Part shown: in pieces, positions 25,198 to 43,901 of the stretch | Layout: each line of letters opens with the position of its first letter | Numbering within the stretch: position 1 is the first letter of the stretch | Origin: an uncultured Rickettsiales bacterium | Lineage (GTDB): Bacteria; Pseudomonadota; Alphaproteobacteria; Rickettsiales; UBA1997 | Length of the DNA stretch: 64,000 bases | Reading direction: 5' to 3' | NCBI GenBank assembly: GCA_944391075.1 | Contig: CALXSG010000001.1 | Location: 6,381-70,380 of the forward strand | The notes under the pieces: generated by a model | Told to the model about the DNA's origin: nothing | What the model saw: the letters and a program-made list of their open reading frames with translations, nothing else | Database searches by the model: none | Translations under genes and position numbers: made by a program

Positions 25198-28100
25198 ATG
25201 CCAAACTTTAAGAAAAAGCCTATTGACGGAAATGAAGCAGTGGCAAGAATTGCTTATAAGATGAGTGATATGTTCGCAATATATCCTATCACACCTTCAT
25301 CACCAATGGGCGAATTAGCAGATCAATTTTCTGCAAGTGGAGAATTAAATATTTTTGGGTTAAAACCTAGCGTTACTGAAATGCAAAGTGAAGCTGGTGC
25401 CGCAGGTGCTTTACATGGTGCTTTACAAACAGGTAGCTTAGCTTCTACATTTACATGTTCACAAGGACTTTTATTAATGATTCCTAACATGTATAAAATT
25501 GCCGGTGAAATGACACCTTGTGTTATTCACGTTGCTGCTAGAGCATTAGCTGCACAAGGCTTATCAATTTTTGGTGATCATCAAGATGTTATGGCTGTTA
25601 GACAAACTGGCTTTGCTATGTTATCTAGTGGTTCAGTTCAAGAAGCTCATGATAGTGCTTTAATTTCTCATTTATCAACTCTTGATTCAAAAGTTCCATT
25701 TATTAATTTTTTTGATGGTTTTAGAACATCACACGAAATCAATAAAATTGAATTAATTGATGACGAAACCATTAAATCAATGCTCAATGAAGATGCAATT
25801 TTAGAATGCAGAAATAGAGCTTTAAAACCTGATGACCCAGTTATGAGAGGTACAGCTCAAAACCCTGATGTATATTTCCAAGGTAGAGAATCAACAAATA
25901 AATATTATAATAATGTACCTTCAATAGTTCAAGCTAAATTTGATGAATTTGCAAAATTAACAGGAAGACAATATCATTTATTTGACTACTATGGTCCAGC
26001 TGATGCTGAAAACATTATAGTTATGATGGGTTCAGGTGTTCAAGCTGTTAAAGAAACTATGGAAGTATTAAACAAAAATGGTGAAAAGGTTGGTGTATTA
26101 CAAGTTAGATTATTTAGACCTTTCTCAGCTAAACATTTAGTTAATGCTTTACCAAAAACAGTTAAGAAAATTGCTGTTCTTGATAGAACAAAAGAACCAG
26201 GAAGTGAAGGCGAACCATTATTCTTAGATGTTATTGCAGGATTAAAGGAAGAAGGAAAAGAAAATATTGAAGTAATTAAAGGTAGATATGGACTTTCTTC
26301 AAAAGAATTTACACCTGCAATGGCAAAAGCTGTTTATGATAATTTAAAATCATCAACACCTAAAAAAGAATTTACAGTTGGTATTAAAGATGATTTAACA
26401 AATTTAAGTTTAGACTATTCTAGTGATTTCAATATTTCATTACCGGATGTTAAAGAATCAATTTTCTTCGGTTTAGGTAGTGATGGTACAGTTGGTGCTA
26501 ACAAAAACACAATTAAAATCATTACAGATAGGGATGAATACTACGGACAAGCTTATTTCGTTTATGATTCTAAAAAATCAGGTTCTGTTACAGAATCACA
26601 TTTAAGATTTGGTCCTAAACCAATTAATTCAACATATTTAGTTCAAAAAGCTGACTTTATTGGTTGCCATCAATTCCCATTCTTATTCAAACTTGATATT
26701 TTAGGAAGAATTAAAGATGGTGGTACATTACTTTTAAATACCCACTATTCAAAAGATGAAGTATGGGATCAATTACCAAAAGTAGTTCAACAAATCATAA
26801 TTGATAAAAAGGTTAAATTCTACATAATAGATGCTTATAAAGTTGCTGACGAAGCTCATATGGGTACTAGAATTAACACAATTATGCAAACTTGTTATTT
26901 TAAACTTGCTAATGTTATTCCTTTTGAAGAAGCAGTTGCTGATATTAAAAATGCAATTGTTAAAACATATAGCAAAAAAGGACAAGAAATTGTTGATAAT
27001 AATATTAAAGCTGTTGATGGTTCTATTGCAAACTTATTTGAAGTTAATTATCCAAAAACTGTTTCAAGTAAAATTGAAATGGAAGAAAAAGTTGGAAAAG
27101 ATGCTCCTAAATTTATTCAAGAATTTACAGCTAAATTAATAGCAGGAAAAGGCGAAGAAATCACAACTTCACAAATGCCATTTGATGGAACTTTCCCAAC
27201 AGATACTACAAAATATGAAAAAAGAGATGTTGCTGATAAAATTTCAGTATGGGATGAAAGCAAATGTATTCAATGTGGTCAATGTGTATTTGCTTGTCCA
27301 CACTCTTGTTTAGAGTCAAAAGTATTTACAGCAGATCAATTAAAAAATGCTCCTTCTTGCTTTAAAGCAATTCCAGTTGTTGGAGATAAAACAGGGGAAC
27401 AAAAATTTAAAATTCAAATATCGCCAGAAGATTGCACTGGTTGTTCAATTTGTGTTTTAGCTTGCCCTGTTGGTGCTTTATCAATGAAACCAAAACAAGA
27501 AGTAATTAAAGAAGAAAAAGAATGTTTGGAATTCTTTAACACTCTTGAAGGAAAAGAAGTTGAAGATCCTAAGACAATTAAAGATTTACAATTTAAAGAT
27601 TCTTTATTCAAATATTCTGGTGCTTGTGCTGGTTGTGGTGAAACTCCACATTTATCACTATTGACAAAATTAGTTGGTGATAGAGCTGTTATTGCCAATG
27701 CAACAGGTTGTTCTTCTATTTATGGTGGAAACTTACCTACAACACCTTATGGAAAGAATAAAGAAGGTAGAGGTCCAGCTTGGTCTAACTCTTTATTTGA
27801 AGATGCAGCAGAATTTGGACTTGGTTTCAAATTAAGTCAAGAGACTCAATTAGTTGAAGCTAGTGATTTAATGGAAAAATTAAAAGATGTACTTGGTGCT
27901 GATTTAGTTAAAGCTATAATGGATAATTATGGAAATAACACTGATGCCGGAGTTAAAACTCAAATAGCTAACTTAAAGAAAGCAAAAGAAATTTTAGCTA
28001 AAAACAATTCATTCGAAGCTAAACATTTAGCATCTATTATTGATGTAATGCTTGAAAGAAGTGTATGGATAGTAGGTGGTGATGGTTGGGCTTATGATAT

Positions 28101-28707
28101 TGGCTTTGGTGGTTTAGATCATGTACTTGCTAGTGGAAAGAAAATTAGAGTATTAGTAATGGATACAGAAGTTTATTCTAACACTGGTGGTCAAGCTTCA
28201 AAAGCTACTAATTTAGGTGCAAGTGCTAAGTTTGCTGTAAATGGTAAAAATACATTTAAGAAAGACTTAGGTGCAATTATGATGAGTTATGGCAATGTTT
28301 ATGTTGCACAAGTTGCAATTAGAGCTAACCCAAATCAAGCTTTAAAAGCTTTCAAAGAAGCAGAAGCTTACGATGGTCCTTCTTTAATCATTGGTTATAG
28401 CTCTTGTATCGCTCATGGTGTTGCCCTTGAAAAGAGCTTTACACAACAAAAGAATTGTGTGGATTCTGGTATGTGGATGCTTTATAGATACAACCCAAGT
28501 TTAATTGCAGAAGGTAAAAATCCTTTACAAATAGATAGTAAAGAACCTAAATTAGACTTATTAGAGACATATTTATATGGCGAAACTAGATATAGCAATA
28601 TTAAAAAAGCTAATCCAGAACATGCAGCAGATATCGTTGAAATGTTAAAAGATCACATTACAAGACGATGGAAAAAATATAAATTGTTAGCTGATAATAA
28701 TTTATAA
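25198..28707 (+). CDS. nifJ: Pyruvate:ferredoxin (flavodoxin) oxidoreductase, single-chain NifJ/YdbK type
   Basis: 1169 aa. Contains GNEAVARIAYKMSDMFAIYPITPSS, two ferredoxin-type clusters (CIQCGQCVFACPH and CTGCSICVLACPVGA) and the TPP domain GGDGWAYDIGFGGLDHV. Confidence 0.95.
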   Translation: MPNFKKKPIDGNEAVARIAYKMSDMFAIYPITPSSPMGELADQFSASGELNIFGLKPSVTEMQSEAGAAGALHGALQTGSLASTFTCSQGLLLMIPNMYKIAGEMTPCVIHVAARALAAQGLSIFGDHQDVMAVRQTGFAMLSSGSVQEAHDSALISHLSTLDSKVPFINFFDGFRTSHEINKIELIDDETIKSMLNEDAILECRNRALKPDDPVMRGTAQNPDVYFQGRESTNKYYNNVPSIVQAKFDEFAKLTGRQYHLFDYYGPADAENIIVMMGSGVQAVKETMEVLNKNGEKVGVLQVRLFRPFSAKHLVNALPKTVKKIAVLDRTKEPGSEGEPLFLDVIAGLKEEGKENIEVIKGRYGLSSKEFTPAMAKAVYDNLKSSTPKKEFTVGIKDDLTNLSLDYSSDFNISLPDVKESIFFGLGSDGTVGANKNTIKIITDRDEYYGQAYFVYDSKKSGSVTESHLRFGPKPINSTYLVQKADFIGCHQFPFLFKLDILGRIKDGGTLLLNTHYSKDEVWDQLPKVVQQIIIDKKVKFYIIDAYKVADEAHMGTRINTIMQTCYFKLANVIPFEEAVADIKNAIVKTYSKKGQEIVDNNIKAVDGSIANLFEVNYPKTVSSKIEMEEKVGKDAPKFIQEFTAKLIAGKGEEITTSQMPFDGTFPTDTTKYEKRDVADKISVWDESKCIQCGQCVFACPHSCLESKVFTADQLKNAPSCFKAIPVVGDKTGEQKFKIQISPEDCTGCSICVLACPVGALSMKPKQEVIKEEKECLEFFNTLEGKEVEDPKTIKDLQFKDSLFKYSGACAGCGETPHLSLLTKLVGDRAVIANATGCSSIYGGNLPTTPYGKNKEGRGPAWSNSLFEDAAEFGLGFKLSQETQLVEASDLMEKLKDVLGADLVKAIMDNYGNNTDAGVKTQIANLKKAKEILAKNNSFEAKHLASIIDVMLERSVWIVGGDGWAYDIGFGGLDHVLASGKKIRVLVMDTEVYSNTGGQASKATNLGASAKFAVNGKNTFKKDLGAIMMSYGNVYVAQVAIRANPNQALKAFKEAEAYDGPSLIIGYSSCIAHGVALEKSFTQQKNCVDSGMWMLYRYNPSLIAEGKNPLQIDSKEPKLDLLETYLYGETRYSNIKKANPEHAADIVEMLKDHITRRWKKYKLLADNNL

Positions 28708-31620: not shown

Positions 31621-34600
31621 CTATTTAACACATTGTACAGAACCAGTATATTGCCACTCAGCAACATTATTAATTACCACACATTTAGCTGTTCTAGTTC
31701 CAACTGTGGTTGTAGGACTATCACAGACTACTTTCTCTATCGTTCCATGACATACTGCATTACTGTGTGTATTGTTGCATGATGTAGAATATTCTTTCTC
31801 CCATCTTGCACCTTCTAATTTCTCTAAATTATTCATACTGCAAGTAATAGGTTCAAAACCGCCTACAATATTCCATTCTCCACGCTCATTACAATAAGCA
31901 TATGTTTCCATATTATTTTTGTAATTTGTCTTAGGTAATAAAGCAACACGTGAACCAATTGCAAATTTACTTTTATCATCATTATATTTTTTATTATTTT
32001 CAAAAACAATATCAGAGAAAGAGTTATCTTGAGGTATAAATGTTAAATCAGTAACTGATAATGTTTCTTGTCTTGGAAGACAACTTCCTAATTGATTACA
32101 CTTTGAAACTAAAGCATTAAAGCTACAAGATCTTGGTTCACATCTTCCCGTAGATTCCCATATTAAATCATTAGTATTCTCATCATAAACACATGTATAT
32201 TTTACTGTACTAGTATCTTCACAATCTATACATTCAAAAAGATTAGGGCAAAATCTATTTACTGAATATCCCTTGTATGATCTATTATTTAAAGTAATTT
32301 CACCAGAATAACCAGAATTTTTTGGATAATAAAGTTCTCTACTACTATCTATATTAATAATTTCTACATTTCCAATTTTTTTATTATATGATGGACACAC
32401 TTTTAATATGCAGGAATTATTTAAGGAATTAGAATCCCATTGTTGAGTTTGTATTATACAATTTTTACTAATTGTTCCACCTTCTTCATAATATCTTTTG
32501 TCACATTCACTTGTAACTCTTACTGAATTTGTATTATTAAAAATGTCTTCAGACAAAATTGATGAACTATTTAAAGAACCAACTATTTCTCTTTTTGCAA
32601 CAGCTGATGAATACTGTGATAAATCAGCATTATAAACATTTAATGAAGGGCATGCATTATATAGTCTACAAGGATTATGTACAGGTCCCCATGTTCCGTC
32701 AGGTAAGCATTCTCTATAAGGTCGTCCAGCAATCTTAATTGTAGTACCTGGTATTACATCATTTTTAGAACCATTGGATATAAATGTTATATTTTGATTA
32801 CTATTAACCAATTGACCATTTGCATTATATACTTGCATATTTGTTTTAATTGTTGAATCGCATTCACCAATTGCATACTGACCAGCTAGTGTTCTTCCCC
32901 AACGAGCACCACCAGTATAAATATCACCAACTTTAGTATTAGCATCTATTTCCTTATAATAATCATTTCTAAGATGCGGAGTTTTATATAAACCTAATAC
33001 TGTAACCTTTAAATTATTACCACTTCCTTCATATGTAAAATTAGTTCTAAATGGATCTAGTGGTTCACAAGCTTTTTCGCATTCATTTTCTATTGCACCC
33101 CATACACCATATTTATTACATCTTCTGGTTGGATGTTGTATTAGTGTAGTATTTTCAAAAAATTTCTTTAATTCTGGTTTAATTATACTGGAAATTGAAA
33201 TATTTGTTGCTGAAAATAAATTGTTATATTGCTTTTCAAAAGAAGAATATGAAATCTTTTGATTATCCATATTTGTGAAAGAATTTTGTAAGAAAATAGC
33301 ATTATGAGGATAAAAATGTTTAGACGCATCACAAGACCCTATAACATTTCTAATATCATTATCAGAAAGAGGTCCCGGTGTTTCTTGCCATGTAGCACCA
33401 CCAGTATGTCTCCAAACGGTATATACATTAATAGTATCTTCATTAGCAAAATAACCAACATTATAATCATCATCTAAGCCTAAAAATCTAGAGAATGGAG
33501 AGGTTGGATCTGCTTCATTACCTGCTAAATTAACTTCTGTATTATGTTCATCATATAAAAATAATGGTACGTCATTAGCAGATATTGCTTTACAGAAAGA
33601 TCTCTCACAATATTTTTTTGAATAATCAACACTAACTCCATATGTATTTGTTTCAATATTTGGATAAAGCATATTTTTATATGTATCTATTTTTACATAA
33701 CCATCACTATCTAAATCATGGAATGGAGCAGAATTTAAATTATATAAATTAATTTTATATTTTGTATAAATATCATCAACAGGCATCCATTGACCAACTT
33801 GATTACAATATCTAACAGGTAAATGATCTTTTGCATTATAATTTAAATTAATAATCATATCACTTGCACTAATGTAATCTTGATTTTCAAGTAACATATT
33901 TTTTACAAATTTATCAAAATATAACACTCCATCAGAAGCTGAATTATCAATTTTAACCGGATAATATTTATTAATTATTTTTGAGAAACCAGCAGGAACA
34001 TAGCCATATATACAGCTTTCAGCTGTTCTTTGCTCTATATCATCACCATGACCATTTTCAATACCATTATTTAAAGGTATTCCATCGATACTGTATGTGC
34101 CTTTTTTATATTCAGCCCAATTAGCGTAACCGTGCGATAAACCTTTTTTATTTGCATTGGTTGAATTTATTTCATTGGTATTTAATGTATATTTTTCTTC
34201 ACTTTTTACATAATTACTATCGTTTTCATTTACTGCAGGACAGGAATATCTTTCGCAATTTGTATTATTAGCCAATATGAAATTAGCATTTAGTGTACAT
34301 GTTGCTAATGGATTAATTGTATCATATGTACCATCATTTGATAATACTGTTTTATTTTTCCAAAAACCTTTACATTCACCTTCTGTAGCATATATTTCTA
34401 CATAACCATCTTGACAACTATCAGAAGTTTCATCGAGAATATAATAATGTCCAGTATTTGGATTGTGACAATATAAACTTTCTATATTAAAACTATCTTC
34501 TATATAAGGTCTCGACATATCAAATTCTGCATGTCCCATACTATCATTCTTGATTTTATCCTCTTTTGTTTCGTTTGTTCTCCAAATATTACTTTTATAT

Positions 34601-37600
34601 TTTTCTTGAATTACACTTAATTTTTCACCAATTCCACCATCACTATAATTTTTGTTTGAGTCATAATATTTTATTGGTTGGCAAATAGGTATAGTAGTTG
34701 CTTCTGCACATAAACCCAATTCTGTTGGTGTAGCCTTTCTAATTTCTTTTCCAGTTGTAACAATGGTAGTGTCTGCAGCATATTCACAGCTACAAACTGT
34801 ATTAATTTGATTTCCATCCTTTAACAATATTTTATAGCCGTTAGTTCCTGGTAAATAACATTCTTCAGGTAAATTGGTACAACTATTTGTTGCGCCATCA
34901 ACATCAGAACATTCACAACTATTTTTTTTAACACAAACATTTCCATATGCGCAATTGCATTCAGCAGTACCATTTAAACAAATACAATTTGGATCATTAT
35001 TGTCGGTACAATAAGTATAATAATGTGTTCTTCTGCAATTTGGGTTTTTTTTGCTTTCTGTATTTAGAATACACTTTCCTAATGTAGTGCCAGTGGACTT
35101 TATGGCTATAACATTAGGGAAATATGTATCAAAACCACTTACAATACATAAATTATTCTCTGCACCAATCGTATTATAATTAACAGGTATATTATTTTCC
35201 ACATTATATATTACATGACCAGCCTTAACTTCTTGATTATAGGTATTTATAATATTTTTTAATTCATTACTACAGTTATTATTTATTAAACACATTCTTA
35301 TTTTTACATAATTACTATGATATATATGAGCAATATTAGCCCGCTTTTGGTTTCCTATATTATATATTTTATCACCATTATATCCACGTATTGTTTTTAA
35401 TGAATAAATACCAGATGTTATATTATCACAGTACGTCTTTACAGTATTTTCACATCTTGATACTTTATTTGTTAGCTGTGTTATATTAGCGGTTATTGCA
35501 TTATATTCTGTCAACGCTTCTGGCGATTCATCTTTATTAATTGTTTCTAATTTTCTCTTCTCTATTATTAGTTGTTTCTTATAATTTATACAATCATAAT
35601 GTAATTCACTACAATAGCTAGCTTCAACTGTAATAGGATAAGTATGTGCCTCAGCTTTTGAATTTGGTGGTAACTTTAATTTTTCCTCTTTATCTGTTGG
35701 TGCATTACTTGAAACATTTTTAAATTGAATAGAATTACTACCATTTAAATTAATATTTTTTGTTTTATCTATTTTATCATTATCAATAAAATATACATTT
35801 AAATAAGGTTTAAAACTATTTGTATCTTTACCCATAGAAATTAATATTGAATTTAAATCAGGTTTTTTCCTTTTTATACACATAATTACAGATTCTACAG
35901 GATTTTTGTTTGCATCAAAACCTAATGGTCTAATTAAACAAACTTTAGGTACTATTTCACTGCCTTTTTCTGTTGTTTTTCTAAGGATATATTCTATCTC
36001 ATATTTTTTCTGGCTATCAGATATAGTTCTGCTTATTTCTGTTTTATCAAAAGGTATTGTATTTGTATCTTGCACATATTCAAAAATTACTGTCATTGTT
36101 GGTTTAAAAAAATCTACTTCTAAGCTTTGGTCTTCCTGTGTGTCTGTAAGTGTTTTATTTATTAAATTATTTGTTGTTGTATCATAAACATAAGCGGAAT
36201 AAATTTTTAATAATGGCAAAAATAAATTTTGTGAATTTAATGTAGTAGCATATTTGTAAAATTTATTAGGTGAGGCAGCTAAAGGTAAAGGTATTCCCTG
36301 AGATTCTTTAAAGAAATTCCCTTGCGCATCATAATATCCTCTACAATTTTGTAAATAACCAACTCTACAATTTGGATTGTTAATTTTTTGACCATCTTCA
36401 TTTATTACATATTGTGGTTGATTATTTCCGATATATTGAACAATATCCCATACAATCCATTTATCATTTGAGGCATATTTAGAGCCTATAGACATTTCTG
36501 TACAAATTGGATTTTTTATAGCATCATTTTCCCCACATTGAAAAATATTATGTAATTCTTCACCAAATACATCTTCATCTGTTATATATTCATAATTAGT
36601 ATTTATTCCGTCTTGATTTTCATCTACCCAATTTTTTAAGTTATTATCGTCTAATAAATTTTCTCCAACAAGTTTACCTTTGTACTCAGTAATTGAATAA
36701 TTTTGATTATTAAATATATCGCCACTGGAATTTAAAGTTATTTTACTCTCAGATAAAACGCTTTTCATAAAATCAGTATCACCACCACTAGATTTTGAAG
36801 CATCTACAAATACATACAATTTACCATTAATTTTATTTATTCTAAATCTTACCTTATTATTTTTTCCATTTTCTGTTACCACTTTATAACAAGTTAACTT
36901 TTTATTAGGATCGGTTTCTGCATTATTCATGTCAGCTTCTACTGCATCCATTGTGCAGTCTGGACCTTCTCTATTCCATTTTAAAGTAACGCATTTATCA
37001 ATGCCACACACTTGTTTCATTGTATTGCAATCATTATCAGCACAGGTAATAACGCATTCTCTAGCACCACAAAGCTTTGTATCTTTATAATACGATGATA
37101 CTCTTAGACATACTTCAACTTCAACTGATTCAATTTCTGCTTTATTAGTTGACCAATTAAAAATAGGAGTTCCTTTTATATAATAACCATCTGTTCTTGG
37201 TGTTAAATTGGTATGATCTACCTCAATATTGCATAAAGCACTTCTACCAGAATTATCTTGAACACTATGACTAAGATTATTTGCATTTTCACATATTGGT
37301 ATAGAAAGAGCATTTGAGTATAAAGTTATAAAATCTTGAGCATTATTATTTCTACTAAAATAATAATCTCCTTCATTCCACCAAAATAAATCATGGACTC
37401 TATTAGAATGAGCTTGTCTAAATCCATATGTTTTAAAATCATTAACATTAGCAAAACATATATTATCTCTATTTGATGTATATATTCCATTCTTTATATA
37501 ATTAAAATAATCTTTTAAATAACTACTATTATTTGTATTATCAAATTTTAAATCAATGTATTTTGTATGAAAAAGACCTGCAGTATTTCTAGTTGCTTGT

Positions 37601-38997
37601 AATATTTGTCCGGGTTTGGCTGGTAATGGTTTAACTGGTACACCGCGCATTAATCTCTTGATTACAGTAACCAACATTAAATCTGTGTCAACATTATTAC
37701 TTGATAAATTATATATACCATAGTAGTCCTGTAAATCATACCGTGTAGAATAAATTGTATTTGCTAAATTATTACCATTAGAAATTGAATCTCTTTTTAT
37801 TGCCAATATTTCCGTTGATGTTTGTGACGGAAATGGCCTATAAAAATATGATAAAAAATTATCGGGTTCATCATTATTTGTCGCATCCTGGTTTATTGCA
37901 CCACATAAAGGATTTAAATTATTTTGTAATAAAGCACAATCCACTGTTTGTTGGCAAAAACCAGCTACACATCTCTGAGGATTTACTAAATAATTTTTTA
38001 CAATATTATTTATTGTAGCATTATTCCCTATTGTTGTATTTTCAAAATTTTTATCAATTCCCGTATATGTATCGCACATACTATTTAGTACTGTATTACA
38101 TTCTAGTTGATTGCTACGTCTATAATTTTGACAATATATAGAACTACATGTAGATGTTAATACTGAATAATTATTACTACTATTTGATGATACAAATAGT
38201 TTTTCTATATATTTTTGTTGATAATTTTCACTTCTTATTATTTTATTATTATCATTCGTATCTCTATAACCAAAAAGCCAGAAATTTGTATAACATGTTA
38301 AGCTGTCACTAGATGACGGAGGGCATTGGTGTATCATGCATTGAAAAAGATCATTGCCTGCTCGATCTTTTAAGCCACGAATATTTGGAATTAAATAATC
38401 AAGATCTTGTTCAGCAAATTCATGACAATACGTATATTCATCTGTAATTATACCTACACTCATAGAATTTCCTAATGAATTTCTAACAGATTTATTCTTA
38501 TATTTGTAGGGATTGCAAAAATTATATTTTATATTATCGATTCCATATGTTTGTAAGTATATAGTTTCCAATTCTTCATTTGTCAAGTCAAGACAACTTT
38601 TTTTATAACAATTTACAACTGGATTACCATTACTATCATAGCCTGGTGTTGGAAAATATAATTTTCTATCACCATTTTCATCGATATATGTATCGGAACA
38701 ATATCTTACTTTAAGACAAGTTGGGTACAAGCCATTAAACGCTTCTGGTAAATTATCTGATGGATAAGTAACCCAAGCTGCTCCAACCGTAGATTCACCT
38801 ATATCACCACAATATGGCAAATATATTATATTATCAACATGTTCTTCTGGTAAAAAATTTTGAGTTAGTATATACCTTGTTTGATCTCCATAAGTTGTTG
38901 GAGACTTTCCATAAGAAAAATAAGGTATAAAGAACAAAAACAAAGTTATTATTGCTAACTTCTCACGAAATAAAATAAAAACTTTATTTTTTATCAT
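31621..38997 (-). CDS. Giant (2458 aa) secreted, cysteine-rich protein with Sushi/CCP-like and EGF-like cysteine modules. Function unknown; probably a surface or host-interaction protein.
   Basis: Uninterrupted 7.4-kb ORF. GAGG sits 5 nt upstream of the ATG. Signal-like MIKNKVFILFREKLAIITLFLFFIPYFSYG. Cys occurs throughout. Repeated C..C..G.W..C-x-CP patterns, e.g. YRECLPDGTWGPVHNPCRLYNACPS. Confidence 0.9.
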   Translation of the reverse strand: MIKNKVFILFREKLAIITLFLFFIPYFSYGKSPTTYGDQTRYILTQNFLPEEHVDNIIYLPYCGDIGESTVGAAWVTYPSDNLPEAFNGLYPTCLKVRYCSDTYIDENGDRKLYFPTPGYDSNGNPVVNCYKKSCLDLTNEELETIYLQTYGIDNIKYNFCNPYKYKNKSVRNSLGNSMSVGIITDEYTYCHEFAEQDLDYLIPNIRGLKDRAGNDLFQCMIHQCPPSSSDSLTCYTNFWLFGYRDTNDNNKIIRSENYQQKYIEKLFVSSNSSNNYSVLTSTCSSIYCQNYRRSNQLECNTVLNSMCDTYTGIDKNFENTTIGNNATINNIVKNYLVNPQRCVAGFCQQTVDCALLQNNLNPLCGAINQDATNNDEPDNFLSYFYRPFPSQTSTEILAIKRDSISNGNNLANTIYSTRYDLQDYYGIYNLSSNNVDTDLMLVTVIKRLMRGVPVKPLPAKPGQILQATRNTAGLFHTKYIDLKFDNTNNSSYLKDYFNYIKNGIYTSNRDNICFANVNDFKTYGFRQAHSNRVHDLFWWNEGDYYFSRNNNAQDFITLYSNALSIPICENANNLSHSVQDNSGRSALCNIEVDHTNLTPRTDGYYIKGTPIFNWSTNKAEIESVEVEVCLRVSSYYKDTKLCGARECVITCADNDCNTMKQVCGIDKCVTLKWNREGPDCTMDAVEADMNNAETDPNKKLTCYKVVTENGKNNKVRFRINKINGKLYVFVDASKSSGGDTDFMKSVLSESKITLNSSGDIFNNQNYSITEYKGKLVGENLLDDNNLKNWVDENQDGINTNYEYITDEDVFGEELHNIFQCGENDAIKNPICTEMSIGSKYASNDKWIVWDIVQYIGNNQPQYVINEDGQKINNPNCRVGYLQNCRGYYDAQGNFFKESQGIPLPLAASPNKFYKYATTLNSQNLFLPLLKIYSAYVYDTTTNNLINKTLTDTQEDQSLEVDFFKPTMTVIFEYVQDTNTIPFDKTEISRTISDSQKKYEIEYILRKTTEKGSEIVPKVCLIRPLGFDANKNPVESVIMCIKRKKPDLNSILISMGKDTNSFKPYLNVYFIDNDKIDKTKNINLNGSNSIQFKNVSSNAPTDKEEKLKLPPNSKAEAHTYPITVEASYCSELHYDCINYKKQLIIEKRKLETINKDESPEALTEYNAITANITQLTNKVSRCENTVKTYCDNITSGIYSLKTIRGYNGDKIYNIGNQKRANIAHIYHSNYVKIRMCLINNNCSNELKNIINTYNQEVKAGHVIYNVENNIPVNYNTIGAENNLCIVSGFDTYFPNVIAIKSTGTTLGKCILNTESKKNPNCRRTHYYTYCTDNNDPNCICLNGTAECNCAYGNVCVKKNSCECSDVDGATNSCTNLPEECYLPGTNGYKILLKDGNQINTVCSCEYAADTTIVTTGKEIRKATPTELGLCAEATTIPICQPIKYYDSNKNYSDGGIGEKLSVIQEKYKSNIWRTNETKEDKIKNDSMGHAEFDMSRPYIEDSFNIESLYCHNPNTGHYYILDETSDSCQDGYVEIYATEGECKGFWKNKTVLSNDGTYDTINPLATCTLNANFILANNTNCERYSCPAVNENDSNYVKSEEKYTLNTNEINSTNANKKGLSHGYANWAEYKKGTYSIDGIPLNNGIENGHGDDIEQRTAESCIYGYVPAGFSKIINKYYPVKIDNSASDGVLYFDKFVKNMLLENQDYISASDMIINLNYNAKDHLPVRYCNQVGQWMPVDDIYTKYKINLYNLNSAPFHDLDSDGYVKIDTYKNMLYPNIETNTYGVSVDYSKKYCERSFCKAISANDVPLFLYDEHNTEVNLAGNEADPTSPFSRFLGLDDDYNVGYFANEDTINVYTVWRHTGGATWQETPGPLSDNDIRNVIGSCDASKHFYPHNAIFLQNSFTNMDNQKISYSSFEKQYNNLFSATNISISSIIKPELKKFFENTTLIQHPTRRCNKYGVWGAIENECEKACEPLDPFRTNFTYEGSGNNLKVTVLGLYKTPHLRNDYYKEIDANTKVGDIYTGGARWGRTLAGQYAIGECDSTIKTNMQVYNANGQLVNSNQNITFISNGSKNDVIPGTTIKIAGRPYRECLPDGTWGPVHNPCRLYNACPSLNVYNADLSQYSSAVAKREIVGSLNSSSILSEDIFNNTNSVRVTSECDKRYYEEGGTISKNCIIQTQQWDSNSLNNSCILKVCPSYNKKIGNVEIINIDSSRELYYPKNSGYSGEITLNNRSYKGYSVNRFCPNLFECIDCEDTSTVKYTCVYDENTNDLIWESTGRCEPRSCSFNALVSKCNQLGSCLPRQETLSVTDLTFIPQDNSFSDIVFENNKKYNDDKSKFAIGSRVALLPKTNYKNNMETYAYCNERGEWNIVGGFEPITCSMNNLEKLEGARWEKEYSTSCNNTHSNAVCHGTIEKVVCDSPTTTVGTRTAKCVVINNVAEWQYTGSVQCVK

Positions 38998-39026: not shown

Positions 39027-39236
39027 CTATTCTTCTACAACTGGAATTGTTTTCCAAGCAATAGGTTTTCCATTGGCATCCATTATGATATTGTTGGTTT
39101 TAGCATATTTAGCGGCCATATAAATACCGTCGCCAGCATATAAACCAACATATTTAATTGGTTCAACTTCCTTTCCATCATACATTTTCTTGCCACCAGA
39201 TGCACCTTTATTTTTAGGGTTATTTTTTGTAGCCAT
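39027..39236 (-). CDS. Small basic hypothetical protein (69 aa) immediately upstream of, and probably co-transcribed with, the giant gene
   Basis: ORF MATKNNPKNKGASGGKKMYDGKEVEPIKYVGLYAGDGIYMAAKYAKTNNIIMDANGKPIAWKTIPVVEE. Its stop lies 29 nt before the giant gene's ATG on the same strand. Confidence 0.5.
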   Translation of the reverse strand: MATKNNPKNKGASGGKKMYDGKEVEPIKYVGLYAGDGIYMAAKYAKTNNIIMDANGKPIAWKTIPVVEE

Positions 39237-42944: not shown

Positions 42945-43901
42945 ATGATAAATAAAAAGATATTTTTTATATGTTTACTTTTTGTAAATAATTTATTTGC
43001 TACTGTTAGAATTGCTGTGCCATATGATTTAGAGACTACTGAATTAAATAAAGAACAAAGAGATAAACTTCAAAATATTAAGAATCAAGAATCTATTAGC
43101 ATGCCTGAACAATATAAAGGCCCATTAAAATATACAGAAGGTGAAGAAGAAGTTAAATTAAGAGATGTTGCCCTATCTTTAGGTATTGGGGGTAGATATA
43201 CATTTATAAATGATATAGAATTAACATCAAATTTAGATTTAACAGGTAGTGCTACTTATTTTAACAAAATTAATAAGTGGAAAATGAAAAATAATTTTAA
43301 TTTTTTTGCTTCAGCTGGTTTATATTGGAGAAATGGTTTTAGAATTGAATTAGAATATTCAGAAATGACTATTGATACAGCAAATTATGGAGAAGATTTT
43401 GCAAGATATAATAGTGGTTTAGGTGCTGGTATTATTTTTAATCAATATTTACAACATGCAGCTATAATATCAAACTATGATGGCATAACTAGACTATCTA
43501 ATAATATGTTACCAGTAGCCGAATTGTCATTAAAAACATATATGTTAAATTTTATATTTGAAAAAACAAAAGTTAATTCTAAAGTAAGGCCATACTTAGG
43601 TTTTGGTTTTGGTATGGTTAATGGTGATTTTTCAAGTCTTGTAAATGAAGGTGGTTCAAAAGTATTTGGTGCGCAAGCTATGGTTGGTTTATCGTATGTT
43701 ATTTCTCCTGAACAAGTGGTTGCTTATTTAGGTTATAGAATATTATATATGAAAGAGATGGAACAAACTTTTACAAGACTTATTGGTGCAAATAATTTTG
43801 ATGGAAATGTATATTATGATCCTGTATTTAAACAATCTACTGAGACATATCAAGTTCCAATTTTACATAATATAGATTTAGGTTTTAAATTCTTCTTTTA
43901 A
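42945..43901 (+). CDS. Outer-membrane beta-barrel protein (porin/surface-antigen like)
   Basis: Signal peptide, beta-strand periodicity (GLYWRNGFRIELEYSEM, PYLGFGFGMVNGDF), and a C-terminal DLGFKFFF. Confidence 0.7.
   Translation: MINKKIFFICLLFVNNLFATVRIAVPYDLETTELNKEQRDKLQNIKNQESISMPEQYKGPLKYTEGEEEVKLRDVALSLGIGGRYTFINDIELTSNLDLTGSATYFNKINKWKMKNNFNFFASAGLYWRNGFRIELEYSEMTIDTANYGEDFARYNSGLGAGIIFNQYLQHAAIISNYDGITRLSNNMLPVAELSLKTYMLNFIFEKTKVNSKVRPYLGFGFGMVNGDFSSLVNEGGSKVFGAQAMVGLSYVISPEQVVAYLGYRILYMKEMEQTFTRLIGANNFDGNVYYDPVFKQSTETYQVPILHNIDLGFKFFF

What the first reader, a model, noticed from the sequence alone, without database searches (positions are those of the whole stretch)
31621..34260. 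C-terminal ~880 aa form an array of Sushi/CCP-like modules (eukaryote-type fold signature)
The pattern C...C-x(4-9)-[G]-x-W-x(5-10)-C recurs from about 34260 to the stop, often followed within a few residues by CP or CS, which would open the next module. Examples: ERYSCPAVNEND.., VRYCNQVGQWMPV, RRCNKYGVWGAIENECEKACEP, YRECLPDGTWGPVHNPCRLYNACPS, KNCIIQTQQWDSNSLNNSCILKVCPS, YTCVYDENTNDLIWESTGRCEPRSCS, AYCNERGEWNIVGGFEPITCS and AKCVVINNVAEWQYTGSVQCVK. The C3-G-x-W-C4 half and the 'CP' module start are hallmarks of complement-control-protein (Sushi/SCR) domains. Here the C1-C2 spacing is longer than the classical ~60-aa domain, so the assignment is tentative. CCP arrays are rare in bacteria, and in a symbiont they would suggest host mimicry or horizontal acquisition.
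Basis: partly seen in the sequence, partly recalled or inferred. Interest (0 to 1): 0.75.

Follow-up and report, generated by a model that had tools for sequence, protein, structure and literature searches.

The report
Sushi-like module tail on giant protein
The tail of a 2,458-residue, cysteine-rich exported protein from an AT-rich Rickettsiales-like bacterium is predicted to fold into four animal-type "Sushi" (complement-control) modules, preceded by two enlarged relatives of the same repeat type, so a protein-binding scaffold typical of eukaryotes is built into a symbiont's largest surface-type protein.

Summary
Window 31621-34260 (-) encodes residues 1580-2458 of a 2458-aa ORF (31621-38997, -). 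The motif C-x(2-11)-W-x(4-11)-C occurs 6 times there against 0.77 expected (0 of 5000 shuffles reach 6). It is kept in all 15 full-length homologues.

- No Pfam Sushi hit appears at E<=10, for the whole protein, for single modules, or for any homologue.
- The last ~345 aa (2116-2456, modules D-G) model confidently with AlphaFold2 (pLDDT ~80-90).
- Foldseek places that model among CCP/SCR arrays. All top 50 PDB hits are CCP/SCR proteins (beta2-GPI 2.8e-7, SPICE, CD46, DAF, C4BP). In the viral library only pox/herpesvirus complement control proteins match with high probability.
- Modules B and C (1802-2110) are homologous to each other. By profile-profile comparison they relate to 55-aa eukaryote-type repeats that Pfam scores as HRM and Sushi, with 35-60-aa insertions.
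- The modelled fold of module C alone has no significant match.
- Module A (1586-1797) is undetermined.

The protein has a signal peptide and no other hydrophobic segment. It is restricted to "uncultured Rickettsiales" MAGs and always follows a conserved 69-aa ORF.

Most likely it is a disulfide-stabilised exported host-binding stalk. Complement mimicry is unsupported.

The parts
39027..39236 (-). Conserved 69-aa ORF, 30 nt upstream of the giant gene and on the same strand. Probably the first gene of a two-gene cassette.
   Evidence: Found 27-31 nt upstream of a giant homologue in five different flank contexts: window, L001, L002, L007 and L009. It is 88-96% identical where the giant proteins are about 40% identical. 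The family has only 10 clusters. No Pfam or NCBIfam hit. A promoter-like site lies at 39302-39275 (-), matching 11 of 12 positions.
38908..38997 (-). N-terminal signal-peptide-like segment (aa 1-30): basic n-region, hydrophobic core LAIITLFLFFIPYF, and an SYG|K cleavage-type site.
   Evidence: It is the only hydrophobic segment (Kyte-Doolittle, 19-aa window >=1.6) in each of the 15 family members, always at aa ~5-35. Sequence.
34486..38907 (-). N-terminal and central body of the giant protein (aa 31-1504). It holds 59 Cys in the window protein, including a dense Cys cluster at aa 1321-1404. Fold unknown.
   Evidence: No Pfam, NCBIfam or PDB-sequence hit. Most of its Cys are invariant in the family.
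34255..34485 (-). Module U (aa 1505-1581). Undetermined.
   Evidence: Read from the sequence. hhalign against the other modules and against the HRM/Sushi repeat units is not significant. Not in the modelled range.
33595..34254 (-). Module A (aa 1582-1801; C1586, C1662, C1731-x5-W1737, C1797). About 212 aa, with the invariant motif ENGHGDDIEQ. Fold undetermined.
   Evidence: pLDDT below 50. Only the ~20-aa P-x-R-x-C-x3-G-x-W stretch aligns weakly to module B (E 0.011) and to the HRM/Sushi units (10% probability). No Pfam hit.
33070..33594 (-). Module B (aa 1802-1976; C1802, C1889, C1960, W1966, C1973). An expanded 4-Cys repeat of HRM/Sushi type.
   Evidence: hhalign B versus C: 94% probability, E 9e-8, 107 columns. 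Shared invariant framework TGGA-W..T..G.C ... P.R.C...G.W......C. hhalign against eukaryote-type HRM/Sushi units: 90.5% probability.
32653..33069 (-). Module C (aa 1977-2115; C1977, C2046, C2097, W2103, C2110). An expanded 4-Cys repeat of HRM/Sushi type, with a ~35-45-aa insertion after C2.
   Evidence: Pfam HRM E 0.021-0.032, 15 bits, below the 26.2-bit cutoff. GLP-2 receptor ectodomain E 0.022. Exhaustive HMMER search hits multi-repeat proteins that Pfam scores as HRM and Sushi. hhalign against 51 such units: 97.5% probability, E 6.9e-12, 44 columns across the insertion. AlphaFold2 pLDDT 73.8, all-beta, but no significant Foldseek match.
32398..32652 (-). Module D (aa 2116-2200; C2116-P, C2165, C2180, W2187, C2196). 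CCP/Sushi-like module with exactly 4 Cys.
   Evidence: pLDDT 73-89, with one 10-residue block at 52. It is part of the ~300-column Foldseek alignments to 4-5-module CCP proteins. Cys and Trp are invariant.
32128..32397 (-). Module E (aa 2201-2290; C2201-P, C2250, C2256, C2259, C2269, W2280, C2286). CCP/Sushi-like module with 6 Cys.
   Evidence: pLDDT 80-91. Foldseek as for module D. All six Cys and W2280 are invariant.
31831..32127 (-). Module F (aa 2291-2389; C2291-S, C2300, C2306, C2369, W2375, C2386). CCP/Sushi-like by predicted fold, with a non-canonical 5-Cys pattern and an N-terminal helix.
   Evidence: pLDDT 77-89, with one block at 55. Foldseek as above. Weak hhalign to module C (19% probability, E 1.2e-3).
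31624..31830 (-). Module G (aa 2390-2458; C2407, C2416, C2425, C2439, W2448, C2456). Short terminal CCP/Sushi-like module that ends 2 aa before the stop codon at 31621-31623.
   Evidence: pLDDT 77-86, with one block at 57. Foldseek as above. In part of the family the C-terminus diverges or is extended.

Best explanation
The region is the C-terminal third of a 2458-aa cysteine-rich protein (96 Cys) with a Sec-type signal peptide. The protein is conserved in a narrow clade of very AT-rich Rickettsiales-like bacteria.

The tail is modular, with short 3-5-residue Cys-to-Cys linkers between modules:
- Four small modules (D-G, aa 2116-2456) are predicted to adopt the CCP/Sushi beta-sandwich fold.
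- Two larger paralogous modules (B and C, aa 1802-2110) precede them. They are insertion-expanded versions of the 4-Cys HRM/Sushi-type repeat.
- One ~210-aa module (A) has an unknown fold and keeps only the closing C-x3-G-x-W signature.

Inferred mechanism. The protein is exported by Sec and oxidised in the periplasm. It then acts outside the cytoplasm as an elongated, disulfide-stabilised string of protein-binding modules, either a stalk or an adhesin arm. The conserved Cys/Trp/Gly/Tyr framework is structural. The fast-diverging surfaces would contact a host or partner molecule.

Shown here: the motif, its conservation, the signal peptide, the predicted fold of D-G, and the B/C repeat relationship. 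Inferred only: export route beyond the inner membrane, disulfide pairing, ligand, and role in symbiosis.
For: - Motif enrichment and conservation.
- A single N-terminal hydrophobic segment in all 15 members.
- Gram-negative context: LpxB, a SurA-like protein and an outer-membrane beta-barrel protein.
- AlphaFold2 pLDDT of about 80-90 for aa 2115-2458.
- Foldseek against PDB: 54 hits at E<=1e-3 and all top 50 are CCP/SCR proteins. Two-module targets superpose at TMt 0.55-0.64 and rmsd 3.1-4.1 A.
- Foldseek against the viral library: only pox/herpesvirus complement control proteins have probability >=0.99.
- B is homologous to C (hhalign 94%).
- C and B relate to units that Pfam scores as HRM and Sushi: 97.5% and 90.5%. 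This agrees with Pfam HRM at E 0.02-0.03 and the GLP-2 receptor ectodomain at E 0.022.
- The family is restricted to 'uncultured Rickettsiales' MAGs and to metagenome contigs.
- The giant proteins are about 40% identical while the neighbouring 69-aa ORF is 88-96% identical. This fits a fast-evolving exposed protein.
Against: - No Pfam Sushi hit at any threshold tried. HRM stays below its gathering score.
- D-G have no sequence or profile similarity to any CCP.
- The fold assignment rests on one AlphaFold2 model built from 12 sequences. No coordinates were available, so the C1-C3/C2-C4 disulfide map could not be checked.
- F and G have 5 Cys each, which is not the canonical four.
- Module C modelled alone has no significant structural neighbour.
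- Modules A and U are uninterpretable.
- No outer-membrane anchor or dedicated secretion signal was found, so surface exposure is an assumption.
- The host organism is unknown.
Confidence: 0.6

Rival explanations
1. The whole 880-aa region is a contiguous array of bona fide CCP/Sushi domains, some with long loops.
For: The C1..C2..C3-W-C4 pattern with 3-5-residue inter-module spacing runs from C1586 to C2456. B and C share a framework with Sushi-scoring repeats.
Against: Modules A-C are 134-212 aa. A has pLDDT below 50. A modelled C has no significant CCP match, with best E 1.5 and CD46 only at probability 0.12. Pfam scores the B/C relatives better as HRM than as Sushi. There is no Sushi profile hit.
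Confidence: 0.15
2. The modules are a lineage-specific bacterial invention. They would be small disulfide-rich beta-sandwiches that converged on a CCP-like topology and on a C-x3-G-x-W-x6-C closing motif, with no common ancestry with eukaryotic CCP/HRM domains.
For: D-G show no sequence or profile similarity to CCPs. Matches of the B/C HMMs to eukaryote-type repeats are mostly a ~20-aa motif worth 2-6 bits per repeat, summed over about 20 repeats. Small Cys-rich folds converge easily; this last point is general knowledge and was not tested here.
Against: hhalign of module C against the repeat units covers both halves of the unit (A-x-W-x2-T-x-AG..G-x-C2 and P-x-R-x-C3..G-x-W..C4) across an insertion, at 97.5% probability. 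Foldseek hits to multi-module CCP proteins have probability 1.00.
Confidence: 0.25
3. The CCP tail mimics host regulators of complement activation, as poxvirus VCP/SPICE does, and protects the bacterium from complement.
For: The best structural neighbours include SPICE, CD46, DAF, C4BP, factor H and viral complement control proteins.
Against: Foldseek reports fold, not function. CCP arrays also occur in non-complement proteins among the same hits, such as beta2-GPI, selectins and factor XIII B. Sequence identity is only 10-19%. The host is unknown and may be a protist, which would have no complement system; that possibility is an inference. No RCA functional motifs were tested.
Confidence: 0.05
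4. The CCP-like assignment is an artefact. AlphaFold2 would be over-fitting a Cys/Trp pattern from a shallow alignment, and the real tail would have another fold or be partly disordered.
For: The alignment had only 12 sequences. The five models have mean pLDDT of 42-52 over the whole chain. No coordinates were available for inspection.
Against: The confident stretch begins exactly at the start of module D (A2 residue 541, full-length residue 2115) and stays at 77-91 across four modules. Two independent libraries return the same fold class. The invariant residues are the expected framework ones.
Confidence: 0.1

Closest known systems
CCP/Sushi/SCR module arrays of animal proteins (beta2-glycoprotein I, CD46, CD55/DAF, C4BP, CR1/CR2, factor H)
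   Same: Tandem small beta-sandwich modules joined by 3-5-residue linkers. There is a Trp between the third and fourth framework Cys, and modules often start with 'CP'. The predicted fold of aa 2116-2456 matches these arrays at E down to 2.8e-7.
   Different: No Pfam PF00084 match. Modules are 81-96 aa rather than about 60. E has 6 Cys, and F and G have 5 each. The setting is the end of a 2458-aa bacterial protein. Sequence identity to the matched structures is 10-19%.
Poxvirus/herpesvirus complement control proteins (VCP, SPICE)
   Same: They are a non-animal genome encoding a CCP array. They are the top high-probability hits in the viral structure library, and SPICE is a top PDB hit.
   Different: The viral proteins are recent, recognisable captures of host genes made only of canonical CCPs. 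This protein is sequence-undetectable, has long been resident in its clade, and is fused to about 2100 further residues.
HRM-type (PF02793) / Sushi-scoring 55-aa 4-Cys repeats of eukaryote-type multi-repeat receptors (P0034-P0039; some carry kinase and fn3 domains), and the class-B GPCR ectodomain
   Same: Modules B and C share the framework A-x-W-x2-T-x-[AS]-G-x4-G-x-C ... P-x-R-x-C-x3-G-x-W-x6-C. hhalign gives 97.5% and 90.5%. The GLP-2 receptor ectodomain is the only marginal PDB sequence hit.
   Different: B and C carry a 35-60-aa N-terminal extension and a 35-45-aa insertion after C2. Their Pfam HRM score is below the cutoff. They have 4 Cys, not 6. There is no 7TM or kinase. The model of C has no significant structural match.
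Giant surface or secreted proteins of Rickettsiales and other symbionts (Sca autotransporters, RTX-type adhesins); comparison from general knowledge
   Same: Very large, lineage-specific and fast-evolving. They are presumed to act in host interaction.
   Different: No autotransporter barrel, RTX repeats or T1SS-type C-terminus was detected. The protein is cysteine-rich with a Sec signal, which those classes typically are not.

Membership tests
CCP/Sushi/SCR domain (Pfam PF00084) | Match to the Sushi profile at or above the gathering score (20.7 bits) | tested here: not met
   No Sushi hit at E<=10 for the whole protein, for the 879-aa tail, for eight single modules, or for any of the 15 homologues.
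CCP/Sushi/SCR domain (Pfam PF00084) | Compact beta-sandwich fold that superposes on solved CCP modules | tested here: met
   Met for aa 2115-2458 only. pLDDT is about 80-90. There are 54 PDB hits at E<=1e-3 and all top 50 are CCP proteins. C4BP, CD46, CR1 and CD55 two-module fragments give TMt 0.55-0.64 and rmsd 3.1-4.1 A. Viral CCPs match as well. Not met for module C modelled alone. Modules A and B are not interpretable.
CCP/Sushi/SCR domain (Pfam PF00084) | Four framework cysteines per module of about 60 aa | tested here: inconclusive
   D has exactly 4 Cys in 81 aa. B and C have 4 Cys in 172 and 134 aa. E has 6, and F and G have 5 each. All are invariant or nearly so.
CCP/Sushi/SCR domain (Pfam PF00084) | Conserved Trp between the third and fourth Cys | tested here: met
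   W1966, W2103, W2187, W2280 and W2375 are invariant in the 15 homologues. W2448 is present where the C-terminus aligns.
CCP/Sushi/SCR domain (Pfam PF00084) | Disulfide topology C1-C3 and C2-C4 | not testable with these tools
   Model coordinates are not exposed. All framework Cys are invariant, so there is no co-loss signal to use.
CCP/Sushi/SCR domain (Pfam PF00084) | Tandem arrangement with short (3-8 aa) linkers between C4 and the next C1 | tested here: met
   The number of residues between paired Cys is 4, 4, 3, 5, 4 and 4 at 1581/1586, 1797/1802, 1973/1977, 2110/2116, 2196/2201 and 2286/2291.
HRM, hormone receptor domain (Pfam PF02793) | Match to the HRM profile at or above the gathering score (26.2 bits) | tested here: not met
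   15.1-15.6 bits at E 0.021-0.032, covering only profile positions 39-64. Two of 15 homologues hit, best E 6.5e-4.
HRM, hormone receptor domain (Pfam PF02793) | Profile-level relationship to repeats that Pfam scores as HRM | tested here: met
   hhalign of 51 units from P0034-P0039 (Pfam HRM E 1e-60 to 2e-22) against module C gives 97.5% and E 6.9e-12. Against module B it gives 90.5%. D-G are all below 8%.
HRM, hormone receptor domain (Pfam PF02793) | Six conserved Cys forming three disulfides (a feature recalled from general knowledge) | tested here: not met
   Modules B and C have four Cys each.
Regulators of complement activation (functional class) | Binding of C3b/C4b with cofactor or decay-accelerating activity | not testable with these tools
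   Only fold similarity is available. No functional motif analysis was possible.

The most novel reading that the evidence does not exclude
A clade of AT-rich Rickettsiales-like symbionts acquired eukaryotic HRM/Sushi-type extracellular modules long ago. It then diversified them beyond sequence recognition: some were expanded by insertions, and others were kept as compact CCP folds. They now form the tail of a giant exported protein, encoded in a dedicated two-gene cassette with a 69-aa partner. The protein would dock the bacterium to a host surface receptor, or mimic one. That would make it an unrecognised class of eukaryote-like effector or adhesin in Rickettsiales.
Probability: 0.3. Interest if true: 0.65.

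Novelty: new variant of a known kind. Interest (0 to 1): 0.5.

Why it matters
CCP/Sushi and HRM modules are typical extracellular protein-binding scaffolds of eukaryotes and of the viruses that copy them. Here a run of them, invisible to Pfam, sits in the largest exported protein of an uncultured symbiont lineage. NCBI annotates a relative of this protein only as 'hypothetical protein'.

If the fold is confirmed, three things follow:
- It gives a concrete candidate for the host-contact molecule of these bacteria.
- It shows that structure prediction can uncover eukaryote-like domains that sequence profiles miss.
- It offers a test case for whether such modules arose by ancient inter-domain transfer or by convergence.

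Tried and rejected
- Pfam and NCBIfam on the whole protein, the tail, eight single modules and all 15 homologues gave no Sushi hit and only sub-threshold HRM.
- PDB sequence searches with profiles A1, A2 and A3, and with the D-G sequence alone, gave only a marginal GLP-2 receptor hit (E 0.022) and non-significant complement C2 CCP motif matches.
- The first genome-contig scan with the single protein found nothing. The alignment-based scan found four Rickettsiales MAG loci.
- A profile search of the 5.8-billion-protein set with A2 returned only one extra fragment.
- Pooling the paralogous B and C modules to deepen the alignment raised the pLDDT of module C from about 45-55 to 73.8. The resulting fold still had no significant neighbour.
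- hhalign among modules found only B~C convincingly. C~F is weak, and D, E and G are not detectably related to one another by sequence.
- Literature searches for Sushi/CCP domains in bacterial symbionts, and for these gut-type Rickettsiales MAGs, returned nothing relevant.
- Recent horizontal transfer is judged unlikely. G+C of the gene (0.28) is close to that of its surroundings (0.23-0.27). The gene is syntenic or cassette-linked across relatives at 26-73% identity.
Full report
**1. What is at the coordinates**

Window 31621-34260 lies inside one ORF, 31621..38997 on the minus strand, of 2458 aa. Base 34260 is the first base of codon 1580, so the finding covers residues 1580-2458 plus the stop codon.

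The window is a densely coding bacterial genome with about 25% G+C. Its genes are Gram-negative housekeeping genes:
- PFOR, dnaN, miaA, HemN-like, and F-ATPase subunits;
- PolA, ThyX, LpxB and a SurA-like protein;
- a Surface_Ag_2-type outer-membrane protein.

The giant protein has 96 Cys (3.9%) and 23 Trp. It is the only Cys-rich, motif-rich ORF in the window.

**2.

- The pattern C[^C]{2,11}W[^C]{4,11}C occurs seven times.
- Six copies lie in residues 1960-2456.
- Shuffles of the C-terminal 879 aa give a mean of 0.77, and none of 5000 reaches six.
- Each closing Cys is followed 3-5 residues later by another Cys, frequently as CP, CS or CEP.
- The same copies occur at homologous positions in all 15 full-length homologues (39-73% identity).
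- Almost every framework Cys and Trp is invariant.

By Cys pattern the tail divides into seven modules:

| Module | Residues |
|---|---|
| A | 1586-1797 |
| B | 1802-1973 |
| C | 1977-2110 |
| D | 2116-2196 |
| E | 2201-2286 |
| F | 2291-2386 |
| G | 2407-2456 |

A possible further unit (U, 1510-1567) lies just upstream.

**3. Sequence-profile tests of the Sushi idea**

These tests are negative for Sushi itself.
- Pfam gives no Sushi hit at E<=10 for the whole protein, the tail, eight single modules, or any of the 15 homologues.
- The only recurrent signal is a sub-threshold HRM match on the end of module C: PF02793, 15 bits against a cutoff of 26.2, E 0.02-0.03. Two of 15 homologues hit, best E 6.5e-4.
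- The only marginal PDB sequence hit is the HRM-type ectodomain of the GLP-2 receptor (E 0.022).
- With the pooled B+C profile, the top hits are the three CCPs of complement C2. They are not significant and match only the R-x-C-x3-G-x-W-x6-C stretch.

**4. Structure-based test**

AlphaFold2 was run on residues 1575-2458 with a 12-sequence family alignment.
- Residues 1575-2114 scored pLDDT below 50.
- From residue 2115, exactly the start of module D, 10-residue blocks are mostly 77-91 through to the end. The region is all-beta with a few short helices.

Foldseek of that model against the PDB returned 54 hits at E<=1e-3.
- All of the top 50 are CCP/SCR proteins: beta2-glycoprotein I (2.8e-7), SPICE, CD46, CR2, CR1, DAF, factor H, C4BP, selectin SCRs, C2 and factor B.
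- Alignments to 4-5-module targets run to about 300-320 columns.
- Two-module fragments give TMt 0.55-0.64 at rmsd 3.1-4.1 A.

Against the viral library, the only hits with probability >=0.99 are pox- and herpesvirus complement control proteins.

So the last ~345 aa are best described as four tandem CCP-like modules. There are two caveats. This rests on one model from a shallow alignment. Only module D has the canonical four Cys.

**5. The larger upstream modules**

hhalign among module alignments shows that B and C are homologous: 94% probability, E 9e-8, 107 columns. They share the framework Y..TGGA-W..T..G.C ... S..F ... P-x-R-x-C-x3-G-x-W-x6-C.

An exhaustive HMMER search of 1.84 billion representatives with the tail found the family itself plus a few multi-repeat proteins, P0034-P0039 (E 6e-8 to 6e-4).
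- Pfam scores these strongly as HRM and above threshold as Sushi.
- Some of them also carry kinase and fn3 domains.
- Much of that score is a ~20-aa motif summed over about 20 repeats.

I then cut 51 repeat units of about 55 aa from those proteins and compared profiles.
- Module C aligns over both halves of the unit, across a 35-45-aa insertion after C2: 97.5% probability, E 6.9e-12.
- Module B scores 90.5%.
- A scores 10%, F 7%, D 2.6%, and E, G and U below 2%.

Modelling module C with a pooled B+C alignment raised pLDDT to 73.8 and pTM to 0.63. Foldseek still found nothing significant. Class-B GPCR ectodomains, CD46 and EphA4 appear only at probability 0.05-0.15.

B and C are therefore insertion-expanded relatives of the HRM/Sushi-type 4-Cys repeat, not demonstrable CCPs. 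Module A stays undetermined.

**6. The whole protein and its setting**

- Every family member has a single hydrophobic segment at residues ~5-35, with signal-peptidase-type sites, and none elsewhere.
- No Pfam, NCBIfam or PDB-sequence match exists for residues 31-1504.
- Genome-collection hits are all 'uncultured Rickettsiales bacterium' MAGs.
- A 4811-aa relative is NCBI MDR0423114.1, 'hypothetical protein [Rickettsiales bacterium]'.
- The identical protein recurs on at least 23 metagenome contigs.

A 69-aa ORF lies 27-31 nt upstream on the same strand in five different flank contexts.
- It is 88-96% identical where the giant proteins are about 40% identical.
- Its family is as narrow as that of the giant gene.
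- The two genes look like a conserved cassette.

**7. How it most likely works**

Shown:
- a Sec-type signal;
- a strictly conserved Cys/Trp framework with variable surfaces;
- a modular tail whose last four units have a predicted CCP fold.

Inferred:
- oxidation in the periplasm;
- a location outside the cytoplasm, either surface-associated or released;
- a role as an elongated, disulfide-braced binding arm that contacts a host or partner molecule.

CCP and HRM modules are generic protein-binding scaffolds, so complement mimicry is only one possibility. It is poorly supported because the host is unknown and fold similarity says nothing about C3b/C4b binding.

Recent horizontal transfer is unlikely. 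G+C matches the surroundings. The gene is old within its clade. D-G have no detectable sequence similarity to eukaryotic CCPs. Ancient transfer and convergence cannot be told apart here.

**8. Verdict**

The first condition is met; the second is not.

This is a new, highly divergent variant of a known fold class in an unusual carrier. The carrier is a giant exported protein of an uncultured Rickettsiales-like lineage. It is moderately interesting. The main open points are disulfide topology, localisation, ligand and origin.

Noticed in passing
window 39027-39236 (-); also L001 9763-9972, L002 9760-9969, L007 9001-9210, L009 9001-9210: A 69-aa ORF with a basic N-terminus (KNNPKNKGASGGKK) always sits 27-31 nt upstream of the giant gene, whatever lies further upstream. 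It is 88-96% identical where the giant proteins are about 40% identical. The family has only 10 clusters and no Pfam or NCBIfam hit. It may be an operon partner, such as a chaperone or regulator, but its function is unknown.
   Followed up: partly
window 199-2367 (-); L009 5303-7219, L010 1062-2978: A 722-aa protein matches the ALK/LTK glycine-rich domain (PF12810, E 1.7e-14). In a distant relative's genome, a 638-aa protein with this domain lies only about 2 kb upstream of the 69-aa ORF and giant gene pair.
   Followed up: no
window 25198-28707 (+): A full-length pyruvate:ferredoxin oxidoreductase (POR_N, PFOR_II, POR, EKR, 2x[4Fe-4S], TPP_C) sits in a genome whose relatives are labelled Rickettsiales. 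This suggests an anaerobic or micro-oxic lifestyle, for example inside gut-dwelling hosts.
   Followed up: no
window 34789-35037 (-), aa 1321-1403 of the giant protein: A dense cluster of 15 mostly invariant Cys (CRRTHYYTYCTDNNDPNCICLNGTAECNCAYGNVCVKKNSCECSD...CSC) looks like an EGF- or knottin-like mini-domain. It has no Pfam hit and was not modelled.
   Followed up: no
window 34021-34059 (-), aa 1647-1659 (module A): The motif ENGHGDDIEQRTA is almost entirely invariant across all 15 homologues, inside a module of unknown fold. It could be a metal- or ligand-binding site.
   Followed up: no
window 42945-43901 (+): A 318-aa protein matches Surface_Ag_2 (PF01617, E 8e-8), the outer-membrane antigen family typical of Anaplasmataceae-type Rickettsiales. 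This agrees with the taxonomic label of the related MAGs.
   Followed up: no
P0024 (4811 aa, NCBI MDR0423114.1), P0030 (1314 aa), P0032 (954 aa): More distant proteins of very different lengths carry A-, B/C- and E-type modules. The modules therefore shuffle among several large proteins of related bacteria.
   Followed up: partly
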